A stretch of 29,362 nt of DNA from Candidatus Heimdallarchaeota archaeon. Lineage in GTDB: Archaea; Asgardarchaeota; Heimdallarchaeia; Hodarchaeales; Hodarchaeaceae. How positions within the stretch are numbered: the first letter of the stretch is position 1; every line of letters starts with the position of its first letter. The notes under the pieces are model-generated. The model did no database searches. It was not told the DNA's origin and saw nothing but the letters and a program-made list of their open reading frames with translations. Below, in pieces: positions 294-25,455 of this stretch. The DNA lies in assembly GCA_048881705.1 (NCBI GenBank), contig JBHLSH010000051.1, forward strand, positions 1 to 29,362. The letters run 5' to 3'. The position numbers and the translations under genes are program-made.

Positions 294-2129
294 TTATTCT
301 GCGAAGAGAATTTCGTCCCATGGTTGTCTGTAAAGCGCCGCTCGTTGGCGTTTTTGATCGAATACGTGCCCCATCATGCCAATAGATCTGCCAAGCACAA
401 AGAGTCCGTTTAAAACTTCGCTATCTATGACATCCTGCTTTTCTTCCGGTGTCATATCGAGGTTTTCCATAAGATCAAGGAAAGTTATACCGATACAACC
501 GTCAACATTAAGAATCAGATTGTTGCGTTTTTGAGTTGTAAGTAACTCAACCTCTAAAGCAAAATCAAGATATGGATGTTTTTCAAAGTTTTCGAACACG
601 AATTCTTTAAGTAGCTGTACACGGACGTCTGGATTTTGAAGTGACTTGATACGATGCCCAATTCCTGGAATATTGATTCCAACGACATTTTTCATATAAT
701 CAACAAACTCAATTGGATGCATTCCTTTATCGAGTCCTTCCTTAAAGTACCGCGCCGCTCCTGCAATTGCACCACCGAATCTTGGGCCTATTGCTAGGAT
801 ACCAGTCGCCAGAGATGACATTAGGTCTTTCCCGGCCCGGGCTGTTACGATGGCATTGTGGGCTCCAGAAACTGCGGGTCCATGGTCAGAAGTTAGTTTG
901 ACTGTCATTTCAATAAAATCCTGAGCGAACTGTGGGAGTTCACGTTTTAACCAAAGAAGCCCAATCACATATCCAAGGGACTTTTTCTCACGGATAATTG
1001 TGTCTAATCCTACTCCAGAGAACATGGGGACATCTCCCCGTTCATCACTGATTGTACATACTACATCAGTAGGACGGCGCACGATACCTAATCGAGATGC
1101 TTGGGCAAAGTCCATGGGCAACTTCGGAGGTTCGAACTCTTCAATAGGATCAATTTTACCCTCAGATTGGAGTTTTTTGAAGGTCTCATTGATTTTAGCG
1201 CCTAACTCATCGTACGTTTGAGGTACGATAGCCCCTACCTCTGCCAATACTCTGTTTTTGTAGTCCGCAGTTTCTCGATCTGTGCCAGCCATAGCACCAG
1301 CATGGCCAAATTGAAGCCCGGATGGCAATAGCTTCGCTGCTGTTCCAATACACCACATTACCAATGGTTTTTTGATTCTGCCATCCTTAATGGCCTCCGC
1401 AACCTCTAGTTCTCCTGTTCCTCCAACTTCTCCGAGGCATACCGTCATTTTAATTCTGGAATTGGCTTCATAACGTAACAAATGGTCTAGGAGGGAGGAT
1501 CCTGCATATCTATCTCCTCCTATGGCTATACCCTCATATATTCCATCAGAATTCTGTGAAATCATAAAATTAAGTTCGTTGCTCATTCCACCGCTTTTTG
1601 AAACCAACCCTACGCTTCCAGGACGGTAAAGTTTCGATAAAACAATGTTTTCAATGGTACCAGCTGTATTCCCAATTTTGAAAGCACCAGCCCTCATTCC
1701 TCCCACTGTTGCTGGTCCAATGATCATTTTGCCTTTTTTCCTCGCAAGTTGTTTCAACATTCTGCTTTGGCGTTCAGGAATCCCTTCTGCAATTATAGCC
1801 ACTGTTTTAATGGTATCCGATTCCAGAGCTTCCTTGGAGGTAGGAAACGCAGATCGAAACGAAGAGAAATTCACCAATACATCAACCTGAGGGTGATTCT
1901 TCAGTGCAAGAGATAGACGTCTATAAATCGGGATTACAATTTCTGTACCACCCCAAAAAACTTTGTGGTAACCTATTGCACCAGCTTGACTTGGGCGGAT
2001 TATTGCCGCAACTGAAGGCTTTTTCCTTTTGCATACAAAATCAAAGTCTAGCATCCGTTGAATTGCATTTCTTTGAAAACCGTATACGATTGCTTGGGTA
2101 TCTTCTGTAAACAATTCATAATTATCCAT
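294..2129 (-). CDS. aclA: ATP citrate lyase subunit alpha (CoA-binding/ligase + citryl-CoA lyase domains)
   Basis: 611 aa. It has QRMLDFDFVC, GPATVGG, SKSGGMSNEL, GIAIGGDRY and the phospho-His motif FGHAGA. The C-terminal citrate-synthase-like domain has DHGPAVSGAHN, GIGHRIK and NVDG. A GAGGAGG RBS lies at 2137-2143. Confidence 0.96.
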   Translation of the reverse strand: MDNYELFTEDTQAIVYGFQRNAIQRMLDFDFVCKRKKPSVAAIIRPSQAGAIGYHKVFWGGTEIVIPIYRRLSLALKNHPQVDVLVNFSSFRSAFPTSKEALESDTIKTVAIIAEGIPERQSRMLKQLARKKGKMIIGPATVGGMRAGAFKIGNTAGTIENIVLSKLYRPGSVGLVSKSGGMSNELNFMISQNSDGIYEGIAIGGDRYAGSSLLDHLLRYEANSRIKMTVCLGEVGGTGELEVAEAIKDGRIKKPLVMWCIGTAAKLLPSGLQFGHAGAMAGTDRETADYKNRVLAEVGAIVPQTYDELGAKINETFKKLQSEGKIDPIEEFEPPKLPMDFAQASRLGIVRRPTDVVCTISDERGDVPMFSGVGLDTIIREKKSLGYVIGLLWLKRELPQFAQDFIEMTVKLTSDHGPAVSGAHNAIVTARAGKDLMSSLATGILAIGPRFGGAIAGAARYFKEGLDKGMHPIEFVDYMKNVVGINIPGIGHRIKSLQNPDVRVQLLKEFVFENFEKHPYLDFALEVELLTTQKRNNLILNVDGCIGITFLDLMENLDMTPEEKQDVIDSEVLNGLFVLGRSIGMMGHVFDQKRQRAALYRQPWDEILFAE

Positions 2130-2136
2130 CTTATAT

Positions 2137-2143
2137 CCTCCTC
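2137..2143 (-). promoter_or_regulatory. Shine-Dalgarno site of aclA (GAGGAGG)
   Basis: The minus strand reads ...GAATAGAGGAGGATATAAGATG. The RBS overlaps the aclB stop and lies 7 nt before the aclA ATG, consistent with translational coupling. Confidence 0.7.
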
Positions 2144-3426
2144 TATTCTCTTGCCTTTATACCAAGCGGGACAACCCGCGTCATATGGGTAAAACGATCA
2201 TAGATTTCAATGGGAACTCCGATTTCTTTTCCGACCGCTTCCATTAGCTTAAGACCCTCTTTTTCATTTGGTCCCCCCCGTCTTACAAAAATCTTCACGT
2301 TTGCTTTCTTGAGCTTATCCGCAGACTTTCGTAAGGCACTAACAATCCCCGTGAAAGTGGCCTTGACATCCGTAAAGTTGGCAATGCCGCCCCCAACGAT
2401 CAGAATCTTCGGCTTTCCTTGAGGATCAGGCTTTTCAGTAATGAGATCGATCAATGTCTGGGCATAGAGCTCGGTATGCTCTCGATTTGGATTACCCGAA
2501 TATTCCCCATAATTTCCAAGATCTTTAGCATAGCCCAGATCGGCTATAGTATCCGTATATATAACACTGGCACCGCCTCCAGCAACCATTGTCCAAATGG
2601 GGGCGTCTCGATTTAGAATGGTAAGTTTAAGAGAAGCTCCCGTTTGTTCATCCAATGATCGGATGAATTCCTCCTCTTCTGACAACACTTGTCCAAATCC
2701 ACGTGGGAATTCTACTGGATTGTCGGGATTTCCCCAGGTATCCATGTGTAAAAAGGCCGCAGTATCGTCCAAACGGGCTTTGAGATCCAAGGGAACGATT
2801 TCTTTATCTTCAGTAACTGCGAAGGGATTTATTTCCAGGAAAGAAAAATCCTGGTCTATATAGACTTGAAGAAGGCCTTTTATAAACGGAATGAGTACAT
2901 CGCTTAGATCTCCAAGATCTGGCAGCTTTTCGGTCAGATTAAACGCGTTGATATCCGTCTCAATAGGAATAGGGACATGGGTGACCTTATCCCAATTCTC
3001 TTCTACGAATATTCCTCCCTCAAAGGAGAAGTGGATTATATCATTGTCTTGATCTGAAGTGAAAGCAACGTAGAATTCTTTTTCATGAGGAACAAAGGGT
3101 TCAACCAGAATACGATTAAGAACTCCAGCTGTTCCGCTGACCTGTATTTCCTTTCCCAGCTTCTCGTTTAGAAATGTTTTTAGTTCATTAAACTCCGCAT
3201 TAAGCAACAATAATCCGGCTTTACCTCTTTTTCCAAAGAGTTGGTCGGGCTTTGCCGCCAATCTCTCCTTTTTCAACCAAGGGTGTTTACCTGCAAGTTG
3301 GTCAAGATCAGTCTCTGGTGTAACCACAACGACCTTTCCATGGTATTGAAAGTCGGGGTAATACTTTGGAAGTTCCTTTGCAAGCAATTGTTTTGCTGCA
3401 AGTTCATAAATAGATTTCTGGGCCAT
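2143..3426 (-). CDS. aclB: ATP citrate lyase subunit beta (ATP-grasp + citrate-binding domains)
   Basis: 427 aa with KPDQLFGKRGKAGLL, EINPF, IWTMVAGGGASVIY, NYGEYSGNP, ANFTDVKATFTGI and RRGGPN. It lies directly upstream of aclA, with an AGGAG RBS at 3435-3439. Confidence 0.96.
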   Translation of the reverse strand: MAQKSIYELAAKQLLAKELPKYYPDFQYHGKVVVVTPETDLDQLAGKHPWLKKERLAAKPDQLFGKRGKAGLLLLNAEFNELKTFLNEKLGKEIQVSGTAGVLNRILVEPFVPHEKEFYVAFTSDQDNDIIHFSFEGGIFVEENWDKVTHVPIPIETDINAFNLTEKLPDLGDLSDVLIPFIKGLLQVYIDQDFSFLEINPFAVTEDKEIVPLDLKARLDDTAAFLHMDTWGNPDNPVEFPRGFGQVLSEEEEFIRSLDEQTGASLKLTILNRDAPIWTMVAGGGASVIYTDTIADLGYAKDLGNYGEYSGNPNREHTELYAQTLIDLITEKPDPQGKPKILIVGGGIANFTDVKATFTGIVSALRKSADKLKKANVKIFVRRGGPNEKEGLKLMEAVGKEIGVPIEIYDRFTHMTRVVPLGIKARE

Positions 3427-3613
3427 TTTTTCAGCTCCTAATTAGTTTCGATTCGATTCATATCCAATTGTAAAATTGGGGTCAATAATCCTCTGCTGAT
3501 AGATTGTCACGGTTTTATCTTGACAGGGAACTGTCATCCAACTAGTCACCTGTAATGACTAAAAAAATAATTATCGAACTTCTATCTTAATGCAGTTCAT
3601 GATCAATTAAAGG

Positions 3614-3667
3614 GAATAAGGGCCATTTGGCCAAAGCTAAATACCTATATTGATCGAATAAGGGCCA
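3614..3667. repeat. 12-bp direct repeat GAATAAGGGCCA (3614-3625 and 3656-3667)
   Basis: Two exact copies 42 bp apart, each followed shortly by AGCTA. Confidence 0.8.
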
Positions 3668-3715
3668 AGCTACCAGCTTTAAATTCCTTCTGTTGTCTTG
3701 ATTCTTTATCCGCCG

Positions 3716-3737
3716 TAACCTCATTGTAATGAGGTTA
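3716..3737. repeat. 22-bp inverted repeat TAACCTCATT-GT-AATGAGGTTA
   Basis: Perfect 10-bp arms with a 2-nt spacer, in the intergenic region between divergent aclB and the TFS paralog. Confidence 0.85.
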
Positions 3738-4048
3738 GGGCTATAATCATGCCTTCCTCCATATTTTCTAGAGAAATGGAGAAAACAAGGAAAAAGATAA
3801 TTGAAAGCTAGGTGATGTTGAAATGGAGAGTACAAACATATCAAGTGATTTTTCAAGGCGAGAATCCCGTTATAAAAATATTGACTCTTCTTTATCCAGT
3901 TGATCATGAGATATCTAAAAGTAGGTCAGAGCTGTAGTATTTCGTTTCGCCAAATTTAAAACATTACTTAAGAACCCGGTTCGTCAACTCTTCATTGCCC
4001 AGTGCTAAGAATAATCCTTCGAGATAAAAAAATCGAGTAAGTATCAAA

Positions 4049-4390
4049 ATGGTAAGCTTTTGCAAGAACTGTGGTTCTTTACTTCTTCCACAAAGGAAAG
4101 ATGATGGCAAGGTAATCCTCTATTGCAAGGTATGCGACACAAAATTTGAAGATCAATTCACTGAAAATTCCTACCAAGTGAAATCTAAGATTCGGCACAC
4201 GGAAGAGGATTTATTGACTGTTATTGAGGATCAGGCAGACTTTGATATTAGACCTACCACTCGTATTGCCTGTCCCCGCTGTTCACATCATGAAGCCCGA
4301 TATTGGGAAGCTGAAAATCGCAAAAAAGAGGAATGGGAAACGACCACTTATTACAAATGTACAGCTTGCAACTGGGTTTGGTCTGAATAG
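4049..4390 (+). CDS. transcription factor S / RNA polymerase subunit M family protein (non-canonical paralog)
   Basis: 113 aa with two zinc ribbons (FCKNCGSLL...CKVC; CPRC...YYKCTAC..W). The canonical QTRSADEP tip is replaced by ENRKKEEW. Confidence 0.9.
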   Translation: MVSFCKNCGSLLLPQRKDDGKVILYCKVCDTKFEDQFTENSYQVKSKIRHTEEDLLTVIEDQADFDIRPTTRIACPRCSHHEARYWEAENRKKEEWETTTYYKCTACNWVWSE

Positions 4391-9677: not shown

Positions 9678-11138
9678 TTACACTTCTGGAATTTGATCAT
9701 CGGGAAGGGAAAACACCTTTGCTAGACTTATATTCACCTGAGAAGTGAAACTTTCATCAAAATAGCTGTCTCGGAAAGATTTTTCACTGGTTTGAATCAC
9801 ATATTTTGCTAATTCATCGATTGATTTTCGTAATTTTTGGTCATCCCTTGTTGCCCATAGAAGGATTTGTAATTCTCCTCCAATCGTCTTAAAAGGCTTT
9901 TTACTTATTAAAATCTTGTGTTTGCCTGCATCGAGGGATTTAAGCTCAGGAGACTTCGTTATCTCTGATAATAAGGATTGAATGCCAACAAAAGCTCCTC
10001 CCGCGAGTAAAGTATCAACTTTGAACTCTTCCCCAGTAAAAGAGAAAGAATAGGGAGAGATTCCAGCAGTAGAAACTATTAAAAGATAAATAGGTTTGCC
10101 CTTGAAGAACAAACCTCTTACAAATAAGGTTACACCGATAGTGATAGGGATAACGATCAAGCCGAATATAATGAGGACCTCGATTGGGAATGGAGGAGCG
10201 GGGTTAATATTCGATAAATCTACACCGTTATTTTCGAAAATTTTAATTGATCCATCTTCAGCGCCGACAACCAAATCAAGGAACTTTTCATCCTGACCGT
10301 CCAGATCGATTAGGAACGGTGTTAGTCGTTTACTTTGAAACTGAATAGATCTGAAGGGATTATTGGCATTTGAAATAACGACTTGATCCCAAAGCGGGAA
10401 TTCTTCTCCCTCGCTTATTCCTCTATTACGTAAGTAGGCAAGTCCATCCTCTGCTGTTCCGACCACGAAATCGGGAAGATCCTCAGTTCCTCTCGGATAA
10501 ATTGCAATCGGGCTTGCAAAATCCCCTACAACGATCCCCTTGAAAACATCTGGATTTTCAATCCAATTAGGGACATTTGGCGTTCCCTGATTAATAAAGG
10601 CATTCAATCGGCCGTTTTCGTCTCCGACAACTAGATCAATTAGGCCGTCTCCGTCAATATCTGCCGCCGCGGGCTTTGCATATCCCGATACGTTGAGTTG
10701 AGAGGTATAAGTTTCATTTAAAGTTAGGATAAGCCCAGTTCTCGCCATTAGATGGAGAGAACCCGAAGCGTCTCCAATAATGACGTCCATTTGATCGTCG
10801 TCATTGAAATCAAGGAGAGCAGGAGCAGAATGAATCCATTGCTCAACAAAAACTCCTGTTTCCTCCGTCTCGAACTTGAAAGTTGTTAAATTTCCCCCTC
10901 CGTTTTTTTGGTACAAAAGGGGCCCCGACTCTCTTCCGCTTATCAAATCGTAATTGGTATTGCTTTGAAAGTTTAATAACAGGGGGTGACTAAACCCATT
11001 CACATTGTTGTACCCTTCTAGAGGTAAGGCAATCCATAATCCCTCTGTTTGACTGGTAGACCCTGTAGCTGGGATTGCCGTTAACATAAAGAAGGTAAAA
11101 CAGGCTGTTAGAACAATCCGCTGTTTATCTCGAGGCAT
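9678..11138 (-). CDS. single-pass membrane protein: signal peptide, about 5 FG-GAP/VCBS repeats, TM helix, cytoplasmic longin-like domain
   Basis: Repeats of the form P.l.D.dgDg..Dl.vG...G (e.g. KPAAADIDGDGLIDLVVGDENG) span aa ~50-305. A TM helix spans aa ~319-345. The C-terminal ~130 aa (YLLIVSTAGISPYS...LLAGGAFVGIQSLLSEI...LKSLDAGKHKILI...ILLWA...LRKSIDELAK) fits the beta-beta-alpha-beta-beta-beta-alpha-alpha longin pattern. Confidence 0.75.
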   Translation of the reverse strand: MPRDKQRIVLTACFTFFMLTAIPATGSTSQTEGLWIALPLEGYNNVNGFSHPLLLNFQSNTNYDLISGRESGPLLYQKNGGGNLTTFKFETEETGVFVEQWIHSAPALLDFNDDDQMDVIIGDASGSLHLMARTGLILTLNETYTSQLNVSGYAKPAAADIDGDGLIDLVVGDENGRLNAFINQGTPNVPNWIENPDVFKGIVVGDFASPIAIYPRGTEDLPDFVVGTAEDGLAYLRNRGISEGEEFPLWDQVVISNANNPFRSIQFQSKRLTPFLIDLDGQDEKFLDLVVGAEDGSIKIFENNGVDLSNINPAPPFPIEVLIIFGLIVIPITIGVTLFVRGLFFKGKPIYLLIVSTAGISPYSFSFTGEEFKVDTLLAGGAFVGIQSLLSEITKSPELKSLDAGKHKILISKKPFKTIGGELQILLWATRDDQKLRKSIDELAKYVIQTSEKSFRDSYFDESFTSQVNISLAKVFSLPDDQIPEV

Positions 11139-24231: not shown

Positions 24232-25455
24232 TTACATTCGTAATCCACCATCTACCTGAACAACTGATCCAGTCATGTAGTCCGAGTCTGATGATCCTAG
24301 GAACACTGCAACTTTGGCAACATCATTTGGGAATCCAATGCGCATTTGGGGAATCTGAGCGATGGTTTGTTCTTTATAAACGTTGGGAGTGTCCGCCGTC
24401 ATGGCCGTTTCAATATATCCAGGCATAATACAGTTAACATTGACCTTATAACGGGCTAGCTCACGCGCCGCCGTTTTTGATAGAGCGATGATACCCCACT
24501 TTGATGCTGCATACGCAGCCTGTCCGAGATTTCCATATTTGGCAGCTGTTGACGTAAAATTGATTATTTTGCCACCAAGCGGCCTTTTCTCCATGAAATG
24601 AGGTGAAATGGCTCGAATACAATTGAAAGTACCCTTGAGGTTAATATCCATGACTGTATTCCACTGTTCATCGGTCATTTTACTGATCAACGCACTTCGG
24701 CTTATGCCCGCATTATTTACAAGAATATCAATCTGTTTAAAAGCGTCCAAAGCTAAATTGACCAATTGGGTGACCCCATCTACGTCGGATACGTCACATT
24801 TAACGGCGAGGGCTTTAGTACCTAAATTTTGAATCTCTTCAACAAGGGAATCAAGGTCTGATTTGGTTCTTGCAGCACAAACAACCTTAGCGCCTTCCCG
24901 GGCATATTCCAATGCAATTTCACGGCCGATTCCCTTTCCTGCCCCAGTGATAATCGCCACTCTGCCTGTTAGCCGCTGACGCGATTTTACAGGACCTTCA
25001 TCTTTTATTTTATCTTTTTCTTCTGTTGAAGTCCGTACAATATCGCCTCGTAACAGCTTGTAGACTACGCGATCGCCCTCGATGACTTCCGCTTCAACTT
25101 TCACTTTTTCTCCGATTTTAAGATCCTCAGACTTAGATGCTCCACTCCAGGTCACCAACCGACCCCCTTCTTTTAGTTTAACCACGACGTTGGTATAAGG
25201 GGCAAATCGTTCAAATCCAGCTGGTGGTACATGTACCTCCGAAAAACTCAGAATCTCCCCTTCTCCTGACAATTCGATATGTTCCATGAATTCATTAGTT
25301 AAACATTTCGCAGTACAGTAAGCTCGTGGTGGATAATAGAGAGTTCCACATTTTTTACACTTGGTTCCTTCCAACACATTTTCTCGCAGCTTATTAATGA
25401 ATCTCTCGCCGATCTTCGACTGAGAAACATAATTACGATACCCAAACGACTTCAT
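24232..25455 (-). CDS. DUF35 (Zn-ribbon/OB-fold) - SDR (FabG-like ketoacyl reductase) fusion protein
   Basis: aa 1-137 contain CKKC..YYPPRAYC...C, LSGEGEILSFS and APY..VVVKL (DUF35). A charged linker follows. From aa ~162 there is a classical SDR: TGAGKGIG, NNAG, NFTS, YAASK and PG. An AGGTGA RBS overlaps the thiolase stop. Confidence 0.9.
   Translation of the reverse strand: MKSFGYRNYVSQSKIGERFINKLRENVLEGTKCKKCGTLYYPPRAYCTAKCLTNEFMEHIELSGEGEILSFSEVHVPPAGFERFAPYTNVVVKLKEGGRLVTWSGASKSEDLKIGEKVKVEAEVIEGDRVVYKLLRGDIVRTSTEEKDKIKDEGPVKSRQRLTGRVAIITGAGKGIGREIALEYAREGAKVVCAARTKSDLDSLVEEIQNLGTKALAVKCDVSDVDGVTQLVNLALDAFKQIDILVNNAGISRSALISKMTDEQWNTVMDINLKGTFNCIRAISPHFMEKRPLGGKIINFTSTAAKYGNLGQAAYAASKWGIIALSKTAARELARYKVNVNCIMPGYIETAMTADTPNVYKEQTIAQIPQMRIGFPNDVAKVAVFLGSSDSDYMTGSVVQVDGGLRM

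What the first reader, a model, noticed from the sequence alone, without database searches (positions are those of the whole stretch)
4049..4390. TFS paralog whose catalytic hairpin reads RKKEE instead of RSADE: cleavage factor, RNAP inhibitor or hybrid
Seen: the C-terminal ribbon tip is EAENRKKEEWETTTYYKC (RKKEE at 4319-4333), against the canonical QTRSADEPxTxFYxC. Established: the DE pair of TFS/TFIIS/Rpb9-like factors enters the RNAP secondary channel to stimulate transcript cleavage, and Sulfolobus TFS4 uses lysines at this tip to inhibit RNAP and is virus-induced. This protein has a basic RKK patch and also an acidic EE pair, with Trp replacing Pro. Inference: a functionally diverged secondary-channel factor, possibly a regulated transcription inhibitor, in a lineage close to eukaryotes.
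Basis: partly seen in the sequence, partly recalled or inferred. Interest (0 to 1): 0.7.

Follow-up and report, generated by a model that had tools for sequence, protein, structure and literature searches.

The report
Hodarchaeal TFS paralogue with rebuilt hairpin

Summary
Window 4049-4390 (+) encodes a 113-aa protein with two zinc ribbons, and RKKEE lies at 4319-4333. It is a paralogue. The same genome has a canonical TFS (tip QTRSGDEA) on another contig and a third, more degenerate TFS-like gene.

Distribution and selection:
- The paralogue occurs in 21 of 22 species genomes of the window's genus.
- dN/dS is 0.03-0.16.
- The hairpin is its most conserved segment and is one residue longer than canonical.
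- A sister paralogue (RRKxEWE) occurs in 8 of these genomes.
- Looser relatives with an x-E-[W/F/Y]-[E/D] tip occur in the sister family of the order. A few MAG proteins, two labelled Odinarchaeota, and one small contig binned in another Asgard family carry it too.

It is not TFS4-like. TFS4 has a shorter hairpin, a KKK tip with no acidic residues and a very basic ribbon.

Its best solved-structure matches are eukaryotic Rpb9, whose tips read RRAEE. Profile tests show this mainly reflects loss of the TFS tip signature. The tree leaves the question unresolved.

Most likely it docks on RNA polymerase like TFS and modulates or competes rather than acting as a standard cleavage factor. This is untested.

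The scan already reported this family on another genome (e1-5416936).

The parts
4049..4390 (+). Whole gene of the TFS paralogue ('paralogue A'), 113 aa plus stop codon
   Evidence: ORF and translation. Pfam PF02150 and PF01096 hits. TIGR01384 scores 59.6 bits, below the 64.75 cut-off. Orthologues found in 21 of 22 genomes of the genus. dN/dS 0.03-0.16.
4055..4150 (+). N-terminal Rpb9-type zinc ribbon (residues 3-34; C5, C8, C26, C29). Inferred to be the RNA polymerase jaw/lobe docking module.
   Evidence: Pfam Zn_ribbon_RPB9 over residues 3-34. The cysteines are invariant. The N half scores 46.1 bits against an archaeal-TFS HMM built without the own genus, at least as high as the genus's canonical TFS at 39.9 bits. 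The docking role is inferred from the TFS4-RNAP structure (PMC8448823).
4151..4264 (+). Linker (residues 35-72) carrying the family motif SYQVKSKIxH...TVIE...RP
   Evidence: Alignments A1 and A2. I48 and H50 are invariant, including in the canonical TFS. The AF2 model has low confidence here (pLDDT 55-64), as expected for a flexible linker.
4265..4387 (+). C-terminal TFIIS-type zinc ribbon (residues 73-113; C75, C78, C104, C107)
   Evidence: Pfam Zn_ribbon_TFIIS over residues 74-111. AF2 pLDDT is 81-92, with strands 83-90, 97-104 and 110-112. Net charge is about -0.5 versus +2.0 for the canonical copy.
4319..4339 (+). Rebuilt hairpin tip R91-K92-K93-E94-E95-W96-E97. It replaces canonical R-S-A/G-D-E-P/A and adds one residue.
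   Evidence: Sequence. The predicted loop is 91-96. R91, K93, W96 and E97 are invariant, and E94 and E95 are at least 90% conserved, in 23 homologues. Hairpin 83-104 has a majority-residue fraction of 0.94 versus 0.75 for the rest of the protein across 21 species.

Best explanation
The gene encodes a functional paralogue of the transcript-cleavage factor TFS that is confined to a lineage and kept under selection.

Inferred mechanism. Like TFS, it docks reversibly on the archaeal RNA polymerase: the N-terminal zinc ribbon and linker bind the jaw/lobe, and the C-terminal ribbon enters the NTP-entry funnel (secondary channel). It would therefore compete with the canonical TFS encoded elsewhere in the genome.

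Its hairpin has been rebuilt. It is one residue longer, the small Ser-Ala/Gly residues are replaced by Lys-Lys, Asp-Glu is replaced by Glu-Glu, and an invariant Trp-Glu follows. I think the most likely consequence is that it no longer acts as a standard Mg-B-positioning cleavage stimulator. Instead it would modulate the polymerase, for example by occupying the channel, holding paused or backtracked complexes, and tuning or damping cleavage and elongation. This would resemble the way bacterial Gre-factor paralogues that keep acidic tips (Gfh1, DksA) regulate rather than cleave.

Shown here: gene identity, paralogy, conservation, tip anatomy, and the differences from TFS4. Inferred: binding to RNA polymerase and the modulatory outcome.
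For: - A canonical TFS coexists in the same genome, and canonical copies were found in 21 of the 22 genomes of the genus, so the canonical function is covered.
- The paralogue is found in 21 of 22 genus genomes. dN/dS is 0.03-0.16 and all eight cysteines are invariant.
- The N-ribbon plus linker stay fully TFS-like (46.1 bits against the archaeal-TFS HMM, versus 39.9 for the canonical copy), which argues that polymerase docking is retained.
- The hairpin is the most conserved segment (0.94 versus 0.75), so the new tip is the selected feature.
- The C half has lost about 40 bits of TFS signature (35.9 versus 76.4 bits).
- In the wider paralogue class, the position equivalent to the catalytic Asp is variable (E, Q, S, L, I, A, V, D, P, T). 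Only x-E-[W/F/Y]-[E/D] is kept. In canonical TFS both Asp and Glu are invariant.
- Literature: the D-E dipeptide is required for TFIIS-stimulated cleavage, and a TFIIS mutant with both residues changed still binds Pol II and is dominant-negative (PMC2994637). A tip swap alone converts TFS1 into an inhibitor (PMC5715097).
Against: - Nothing was assayed here.
- The tip keeps R91 at the canonical spacing from an acidic pair (R-x-x-E-E versus R-x-x-D-E) and has a further invariant Glu. A working, possibly rebuilt, metal-binding dyad is therefore quite possible.
- Hairpin length also varies from 23 to 25 residues among canonical TFS, so the extra residue is not decisive.
- The AF2 model is of moderate quality (pLDDT 75.8, pTM 0.36), and no model of the polymerase complex was made.
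- There is no expression or regulatory information.
Confidence: 0.5

Rival explanations
1. It is a specialised but active cleavage factor. The Glu pair (E94/E95, or E95/E97 flanking the Trp) still positions the catalytic metal. The Lys-Lys collar and the Trp grip the extruded backtracked RNA. This would give a different substrate range, such as deeper backtracks or different conditions, much as GreB differs from GreA.
For: R91 and an acidic pair keep the canonical register R-x-x-[D/E]-E. E95 and E97 are invariant or nearly so across paralogues A and B and in the wider class. The docking half of the protein is intact. Strong purifying selection acts on the tip.
Against: The Asp-equivalent position is not conserved in sister paralogue B (Q, S, E, D, P) or in the wider class. 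The small residues that precede D-E in every canonical TFS, TFIIS and RPC10 are replaced by bulky lysines. The protein scores below the TIGR01384 equivalog cut-off. From memory only, as the paper was not held: Jeon et al. 1994 reported that even conservative changes of the TFIIS D-E dipeptide abolish activity.
Confidence: 0.3
2. It is an Rpb9-like protein: a stably bound polymerase subunit whose C-ribbon sits outside the pore. It might share ancestry with eukaryotic Rpb9, which would place the TFS/Rpb9 split inside Hodarchaeales-like archaea.
For: The best solved-structure matches are Rpb9 (Drosophila 9mu7_I at 59.5 bits; human at 48 bits), while human RPC10 drops to 22.9 bits. The canonical TFS shows the reverse ranking. 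Rpb9 tips read QTRRAEEE, QSKKAEEE or SRRSEDG, the same basic-basic-x-acidic-acidic pattern, followed by YY-x-C. The AU test does not reject paralogues A+B grouping with Rpb9 (delta lnL 8.0, p=0.279), and that grouping costs less likelihood than grouping A+B with the genus's own canonical TFS (delta lnL 20.5, p=0.142).
Against: Against family profiles, the paralogue scores 86.9 bits with archaeal TFS and only 47.3 with Rpb9, and this holds for both halves. Its C half is no more Rpb9-like than the canonical TFS C half (26.3 versus 33.6 bits). The PDB ranking therefore reflects loss of the TFS/RPC10 tip signature and the absence of full-length canonical TFS from the PDB. The free tree does not join it to Rpb9, and the backbone support is 22-56%. 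Rpb9 hairpins have canonical length. The strict form is confined to one genus, and looser forms to the order plus a few MAGs.
Confidence: 0.1
3. It is a TFS4-type potent global polymerase inhibitor, possibly induced by virus infection.
For: There are two lysines next to the tip. There is precedent that TFS paralogues can become inhibitors (PMC5715097).
Against: TFS4 has a shortened hairpin, KKK with no acidic residues, and a highly basic C-ribbon that binds acidic funnel patches (PMC5715097, PMC8448823). Here the hairpin is longer, acidic residues are the conserved core, and the C-ribbon net charge is -0.5. The NCBIfam TFS4 model scores 21.6 bits against a cut-off of 120. The gene has a housekeeping neighbourhood, and synteny is not conserved beyond the closest species.
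Confidence: 0.07

Closest known systems
Canonical archaeal transcription factor S (TFS; TIGR01384; e.g. Thermococcus celer TFS C-domain, PDB 1qyp; Sulfolobus TFS1)
   Same: It has the same two-ribbon architecture, length, linker motif and eight cysteines. Its N half is fully TFS-like. Its best family-level match is archaeal TFS at 86.9 bits.
   Different: It scores below the equivalog cut-off (59.6 versus 64.75). Q-T-R-S-A-D-E-P is replaced by E-N-R-K-K-E-E-W-E. The hairpin is one residue longer. The C-ribbon is neutral to acidic rather than basic. It coexists with a true TFS.
Sulfolobales TFS4 (RNAP inhibitor; PDB 7oqy chain Y; NF047723)
   Same: Both are TFS paralogues that sit beside a canonical TFS, keep both zinc ribbons, have an altered tip and carry lysines near the tip.
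   Different: TFS4 has a shorter hairpin with KKK, no acidic residues and a very basic C-ribbon. Here the hairpin is longer, with an invariant acidic-aromatic-acidic core and net charge near zero. The NF047723 score is 21.6 against a cut-off of 120. The phylum is different and the duplication is independent (PMC5715097, PMC8448823).
Eukaryotic RNA polymerase II subunit Rpb9
   Same: Rpb9 is the best match among solved structures (59.5 bits, about 30% identity). Both tips follow a basic-basic-x-acidic-acidic pattern and lack the catalytic QTRSADE signature. Both have YY-x-C after the hairpin.
   Different: The paralogue is closer to the archaeal TFS profile than to the Rpb9 profile in both halves. 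Rpb9 hairpins have canonical length and no Trp. No supported clade joins it to Rpb9. Stable subunit status is unknown.
Bacterial Gre-factor paralogues (GreB versus GreA; Gfh1, DksA). An analogy only; they are not homologous.
   Same: These are secondary-channel factors that arose by duplication, keep acidic tips and differ in outcome. A basic patch changes the range of backtracked RNA handled (GreB), or the factor regulates or inhibits instead of cleaving (Gfh1, DksA). PMC8448823 names Gfh1 and DksA as funnel-binding inhibitors; the GreA/GreB contrast is from my own knowledge.
   Different: The fold is unrelated (coiled coil versus zinc ribbon). The comparison concerns mechanism only.

Membership tests
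Archaeal TFS (TIGR01384; Pfam PF02150 + PF01096) | N-terminal Rpb9-type zinc ribbon with four Cys | tested here: met
   PF02150 scores 32.2 bits (cut-off 25.2) over residues 3-34. C5, C8, C26 and C29 are invariant.
Archaeal TFS (TIGR01384; Pfam PF02150 + PF01096) | C-terminal TFIIS-type zinc ribbon with four Cys | tested here: met
   PF01096 scores 30.4 bits (cut-off 21) over residues 74-111. C75, C78, C104 and C107 are invariant.
Archaeal TFS (TIGR01384; Pfam PF02150 + PF01096) | Score at or above the curated equivalog cut-off (64.75 bits) | tested here: not met
   The paralogue scores 59.6 bits (58.9 in the genome scan). The genome's canonical copy scores 75.5 bits.
Archaeal TFS (TIGR01384; Pfam PF02150 + PF01096) | Invariant Asp-Glu dyad in the Q-T-R-[SAG]-[AG]-D-E hairpin tip | tested here: not met
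   The tip reads E-N-R-K-K-E-E-W-E and the hairpin is one residue longer. The Asp-equivalent position varies in sister paralogues.
Archaeal TFS (TIGR01384; Pfam PF02150 + PF01096) | Reversible RNAP binding and stimulation of transcript cleavage | not testable with these tools
   This requires biochemistry.
TFS4 (NF047723; Sulfolobales RNAP inhibitor) | Family model score at or above the cut-off (120 bits) | tested here: not met
   21.6 bits.
TFS4 (NF047723; Sulfolobales RNAP inhibitor) | Shortened C-ribbon hairpin with a triple-lysine tip and no acidic residues | tested here: not met
   The hairpin is longer (25 versus 24 residues between knuckles). The tip has two Lys followed by conserved E-E-W-E. 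The definition comes from PMC5715097.
TFS4 (NF047723; Sulfolobales RNAP inhibitor) | Strongly positively charged C-ribbon surface | tested here: not met
   Mean C-ribbon net charge is -0.5 for 12 paralogue A sequences and +2.0 for the canonical copy. The definition comes from PMC8448823.
Eukaryotic Rpb9 | Closer to the Rpb9 sequence profile than to the TFS profile | tested here: not met
   47.3 bits with the Rpb9 HMM versus 86.9 bits with the archaeal-TFS HMM. The same direction holds for the N and C halves.
Eukaryotic Rpb9 | Forms a clade with Rpb9 in a family tree | tested here: inconclusive
   The free tree does not group them, and its backbone is unresolved. The AU test does not reject the grouping (p=0.279). 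The rival grouping with the canonical TFS of the genus is not rejected either (p=0.142).
Eukaryotic Rpb9 | Non-catalytic tip with basic-basic-x-acidic-acidic residues at canonical hairpin length | tested here: inconclusive
   The charge pattern is shared (RKKEE versus RRAEE or KKAEE), but the hairpin is one residue longer and carries a Trp that Rpb9 lacks.
Eukaryotic Rpb9 | Stoichiometric, stably bound polymerase subunit with its C-ribbon outside the pore | not testable with these tools
   This requires purification of native RNAP or a structure.

The most novel reading that the evidence does not exclude
The Hodarchaeales paralogue class (x-E-aromatic-E tip, no catalytic QTRSADE) could be the archaeal sister of eukaryotic Rpb9. 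In that case the split between a removable cleavage factor and a non-catalytic, Rpb9-like polymerase-bound protein would have begun in archaea close to the eukaryotic ancestor. [quoted passage not shown]
Probability: 0.07. Interest if true: 0.85.

Novelty: new variant of a known kind. Interest (0 to 1): 0.5.

Why it matters
TFS, TFIIS, Rpb9, RPA12 and RPC10 form one family. Small changes at one hairpin tip switch its members between cleavage stimulation, inhibition and structural roles. This archaeal lineage, named among the closest relatives of eukaryotes, keeps up to four TFS-like genes.

One of them has a tip that has been rebuilt under strong selection and is unlike the only characterised divergent paralogue, TFS4. 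It offers a naturally evolved tip variant of the secondary-channel probe. The variant can be grafted onto tractable TFS or TFIIS proteins to ask what a Lys-Lys/Glu-Glu/Trp tip does at the active site.

It also gives a concrete, if weakly supported, candidate for how non-catalytic Rpb9-like proteins could arise from TFS.

Tried and rejected
- **Rpb9 affinity.** The PDB sequence search put Rpb9 first. The canonical TFS control and split family-HMM scoring showed this is mostly loss of the TFS/RPC10 tip signature, together with the absence of full-length canonical TFS from the PDB. I rejected it as positive evidence and keep it as a low-probability rival.
- **Phylogeny.** The tree had 90 rows and 114 columns and was built by a careful IQ-TREE search. 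Only the shallow clades are supported: A+B at 100/99, Rpb9 at 96/99, and the canonical TFS of the genus at 100/97. Neither AU test rejects its hypothesis. No RPA12, TFIIS or TFS4 sequences were available by reference, so they are not in the tree. P0178 (a chimeric gene model) was left out. P0155 entered the tree twice by mistake, under two labels.
- **Fold search.** Searching the AF2 model against the PDB returned the whole family (RPC10, Rpb9, RPA12, TFS4) at TM about 0.35, because the two domains are joined flexibly. It does not discriminate.
- **TFS4 analogy.** Rejected on hairpin length, charge and model score.
- **Gene neighbourhood.** There is no conserved synteny beyond the closest species and no virus or defence genes in the window.
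- **Phylum-wide pattern scan.** Hits outside the order were unrelated zinc fingers, apart from one paralogue B-like gene. That gene lies on a 4.5-kb contig of a MAG of another family (G180) and may be mis-binned.
- **Jeon et al. 1994 (PMC44756).** The paper is not held, so the claim about conservative D-E substitutions rests on memory only.
- **Complex prediction.** No job was sent. The secondary channel cannot be represented within the size limit, and a pass on jaw docking would follow from homology alone.

Full report
**1. Observation**

Window 4049..4390 (+) is an ATG-initiated ORF of 113 aa. Residues 87-104 read EAENRKKEEWETTTYYKC.

Pfam finds an Rpb9-type N-terminal zinc ribbon (residues 3-34, 32.2 bits) and a TFIIS-type C-terminal ribbon (residues 74-111, 30.4 bits). 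Both are above their cut-offs. The NCBIfam TFS equivalog TIGR01384 matches end to end at 59.6 bits, just under its cut-off of 64.75. The TFS4 model scores 21.6 bits against a cut-off of 120.

**2. It is a paralogue**

The window is contig C51 of a 3.96-Mb, 155-contig, 91%-complete assembly. A scan of that genome finds three TFS-like genes:
- C27:4210-4545 (-) scores 75.5 bits, above the cut-off, and has the tip QVQTRSGDEASTTFYRC. This is the canonical TFS.
- The gene studied here.
- C86:8283-8630 (+), a 148-aa protein. It keeps a G-D-E tip, but the first knuckle of its C-ribbon is C-x-H and it has a basic tail.

**3. Distribution and selection**

Close homologues (63-82% identity) are named Hodarchaeales, Heimdallarchaeota or Promethearchaeota archaeon by their sources. 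I searched 83 genomes of the same class with a profile of the paralogue:
- The paralogue ('A', 189-207 bits) is found in 21 of 22 species genomes of the window's genus and nowhere else.
- A sister paralogue ('B', 141-156 bits, tip E-[AG]-G-[DN]-R-R-K-x-E-W-E-S-M-T-Y-Y-K-C) is found in 8 of those genomes.
- A canonical QTRS[AG]DE TFS (85-97 bits) is found in 21 of 22. The exception is a 71%-complete MAG.
- The C86-type gene is found in at least 13.

Across 21 species, the hairpin (residues 83-104) is the best conserved part: its majority-residue fraction is 0.94, versus 0.75 for the N-ribbon and the linker. R91, K93, W96 and E97 are invariant in 23 homologues. dN/dS for eight species pairs is 0.03-0.16.

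The hairpin is one residue longer than canonical (25 versus 24 residues between knuckles). A few orthologues have two extra residues, such as RKKTEEWE.

The gene neighbourhood is shared only with the closest species. In the window it consists of ATP-citrate lyase, an ABC-2 transporter and acyl-CoA metabolism genes.

**4. A wider class**

Both genomes of the sister family in the same order carry a second TFS-like gene with the same register. Their tips read GTKEDFEEIMVYKC and QTDEYDETTFYRC.

The exhaustive representative search (522 hits at E<=1e-3) and a word-based search add further members:
- KVEEFETALVYRC and NKAEEYERTLTYCC, both from one NCBI MAG labelled Odinarchaeota.
- SRGAE[YF]EHALYYRC, from MAGs labelled Hodarchaeales and Odinarchaeota.
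- KGIEYEPALFYRC.

A DNA pattern scan of 400 genomes of the phylum finds true matches only in the genus (20 of 21 plus the window's own genome), in the sister family (2 of 2), and in one paralogue B-like gene on a 4.5-kb contig of a MAG from another family.

Across this class only x-E-[W/F/Y]-[E/D] is constant. The position equivalent to the catalytic Asp is variable.

**5. Comparison with TFS4**

According to PMC5715097 and PMC8448823, TFS4 has:
- a shortened hairpin;
- three lysines and no acidic residues at the tip;
- a highly basic C-ribbon that binds acidic patches of the funnel without reaching the active site.

The present protein has a longer hairpin, a conserved acidic-aromatic-acidic core, and a C-ribbon net charge of about -0.5. 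For comparison, the canonical copy of the genus is +2.0, other archaeal TFS +1.9 and Rpb9 +0.6. Only the general precedent holds: a tip change can convert TFS into a regulator. The specific analogy does not.

**6. Comparison with Rpb9**

Among solved structures the best sequence matches are Rpb9: Drosophila 9mu7_I at 59.5 bits, and human at about 48 bits. Human RPC10 scores only 22.9 bits, and the profile of the paralogue gives the same order. The genome's canonical TFS behaves the opposite way: T. celer TFS 66.6, RPC10 49.7, Rpb9 about 40. Rpb9 tips (QTRRAEEE, QSKKAEEE, SRRSEDG) share the basic-basic-x-acidic-acidic pattern.

The controls weaken this link:
- Against an archaeal-TFS HMM built without the own genus, paralogue A scores 86.9 bits, versus 47.3 against an Rpb9 HMM.
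- Its N half scores 46.1 versus 22.5, and its C half 35.9 versus 26.3.
- Its C half is no more Rpb9-like than the canonical C half (33.6 bits).
- In the exhaustive search, Rpb9 sequences rank at 49-54 bits, among canonical TFS of other phyla.

A careful tree (90 rows, 114 columns) supports A+B (100/99), Rpb9 (96/99) and the canonical TFS of the genus (100/97) as separate clades. The backbone is unresolved.

The AU tests reject neither grouping. A+B with Rpb9 gives delta lnL 8.0 and p=0.279. A+B with the canonical TFS of the genus gives delta lnL 20.5 and p=0.142. Shared ancestry with Rpb9 is therefore not excluded, but it has no positive support beyond the charge pattern of the tip.

**7. Structure**

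The AF2 model (pLDDT 75.8; C-ribbon 81-92) shows strands 83-90 and 97-104 with loop 91-96 (RKKEEW). Foldseek returns the whole family without discrimination.

**8. Mechanism**

Shown here:
- The docking half of the protein is intact.
- The ribbons are intact.
- A canonical TFS coexists in the genome.
- The rebuilt tip is the most strongly selected feature.

Established in the literature:
- The D-E dyad is required for stimulated cleavage.
- Tip mutants still bind the polymerase and can be dominant-negative (PMC2994637).
- Tip swaps alone switch function (PMC5715097).

Inferred: the protein enters the funnel in competition with TFS and modulates rather than simply stimulates cleavage (about 0.5). 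A specialised active cleavage factor with a rebuilt dyad and an RNA-gripping Lys/Trp collar is a serious rival (about 0.3). The Rpb9-like reading is at about 0.1 and the TFS4-like inhibitor at about 0.07.

**9. Prior knowledge**

Fouqueau et al. 2017 state that tfs genes multiplied independently in Heimdallarchaea and other lineages. Their supplementary table lists two copies in Heimdallarchaeota AB_125. I found no paper that describes this tip.

The scan itself reported the same family on another genome (e1-5416936) with the same conclusion. Two first-reader notes are similar.

**10. Verdict**

This is a real feature. It is a new variant of a known kind and of moderate interest. Its function awaits biochemistry.

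Noticed in passing
Own genome G000:C86:8283-8630 (+) = L003:1489-1935: This is a third TFS-like gene ('paralogue C', 148 aa). Its N-ribbon is intact and its tip reads FSKGDEAS, so G-D-E is kept. The first knuckle of its C-ribbon is C-x-H instead of C-x-x-C, and it has a long basic C-terminal tail. It is conserved in at least 13 genomes of the genus and forms a long, fully supported branch in the tree.
   Followed up: partly
L042-L049 (eight genomes of the same genus; absent from the window's genome): This is sister paralogue B (115 aa). It has a basic insert in the N-ribbon loop (KKRxKK). Its tip reads E-[AG]-G-[DN]-R-R-K-x-E-W-E-S-M-T-Y-Y-K-C, and the Asp-equivalent position is Q, S, E, D or P. 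These genomes therefore carry four TFS-like genes.
   Followed up: partly
L001:1495-1854 (-) and L033, L050-L054: In the canonical TFS of this genus, the first N-ribbon knuckle is shortened to C-x-C (FC[DES]CG) instead of C-x-x-C. Paralogue A keeps the standard FCxxCG. This is why the N half of the paralogue scores higher against the general TFS profile than the canonical copy does.
   Followed up: no
L092:266-610 (G180:C13, a 4.5-kb contig of a MAG from another Asgard family): A paralogue B-like gene (tip SSNRKKLEWEPITYYRC) is the only such hit outside the order among 400 genomes of the phylum. It could reflect mis-binning or horizontal transfer.
   Followed up: partly
window 294-3426 (-): Two adjacent genes encode the ATP-citrate lyase subunits. 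One carries the citrate-binding and ATP-grasp domains. The other carries the CoA-ligase and citrate-synthase-like domains. They lie directly upstream of the TFS paralogue on the opposite strand.
   Followed up: no
window 3587-3907 (-): A 106-aa ORF with no Pfam match lies between the ATP-citrate lyase genes and the TFS paralogue. It is 83% identical in the closest species, where the flanking genes are 94-97% identical. It may be a small real gene or merely conserved spacer.
   Followed up: no
window 9678-11138 (-): This 486-aa protein has an FG-GAP-like repeat (E=4.7e-11) and a weak, sub-threshold match to the middle region of the ciliary BBSome subunit BBS2 (E=6e-4, 20.2 bits against a cut-off of 27).
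   Followed up: no
window 24232-25455 (-): This gene fuses a ChsH2-type rubredoxin-like zinc ribbon and OB fold to a short-chain dehydrogenase. It lies in a cluster with thiolase, zinc alcohol dehydrogenase and acyl-CoA dehydrogenase genes.
   Followed up: no
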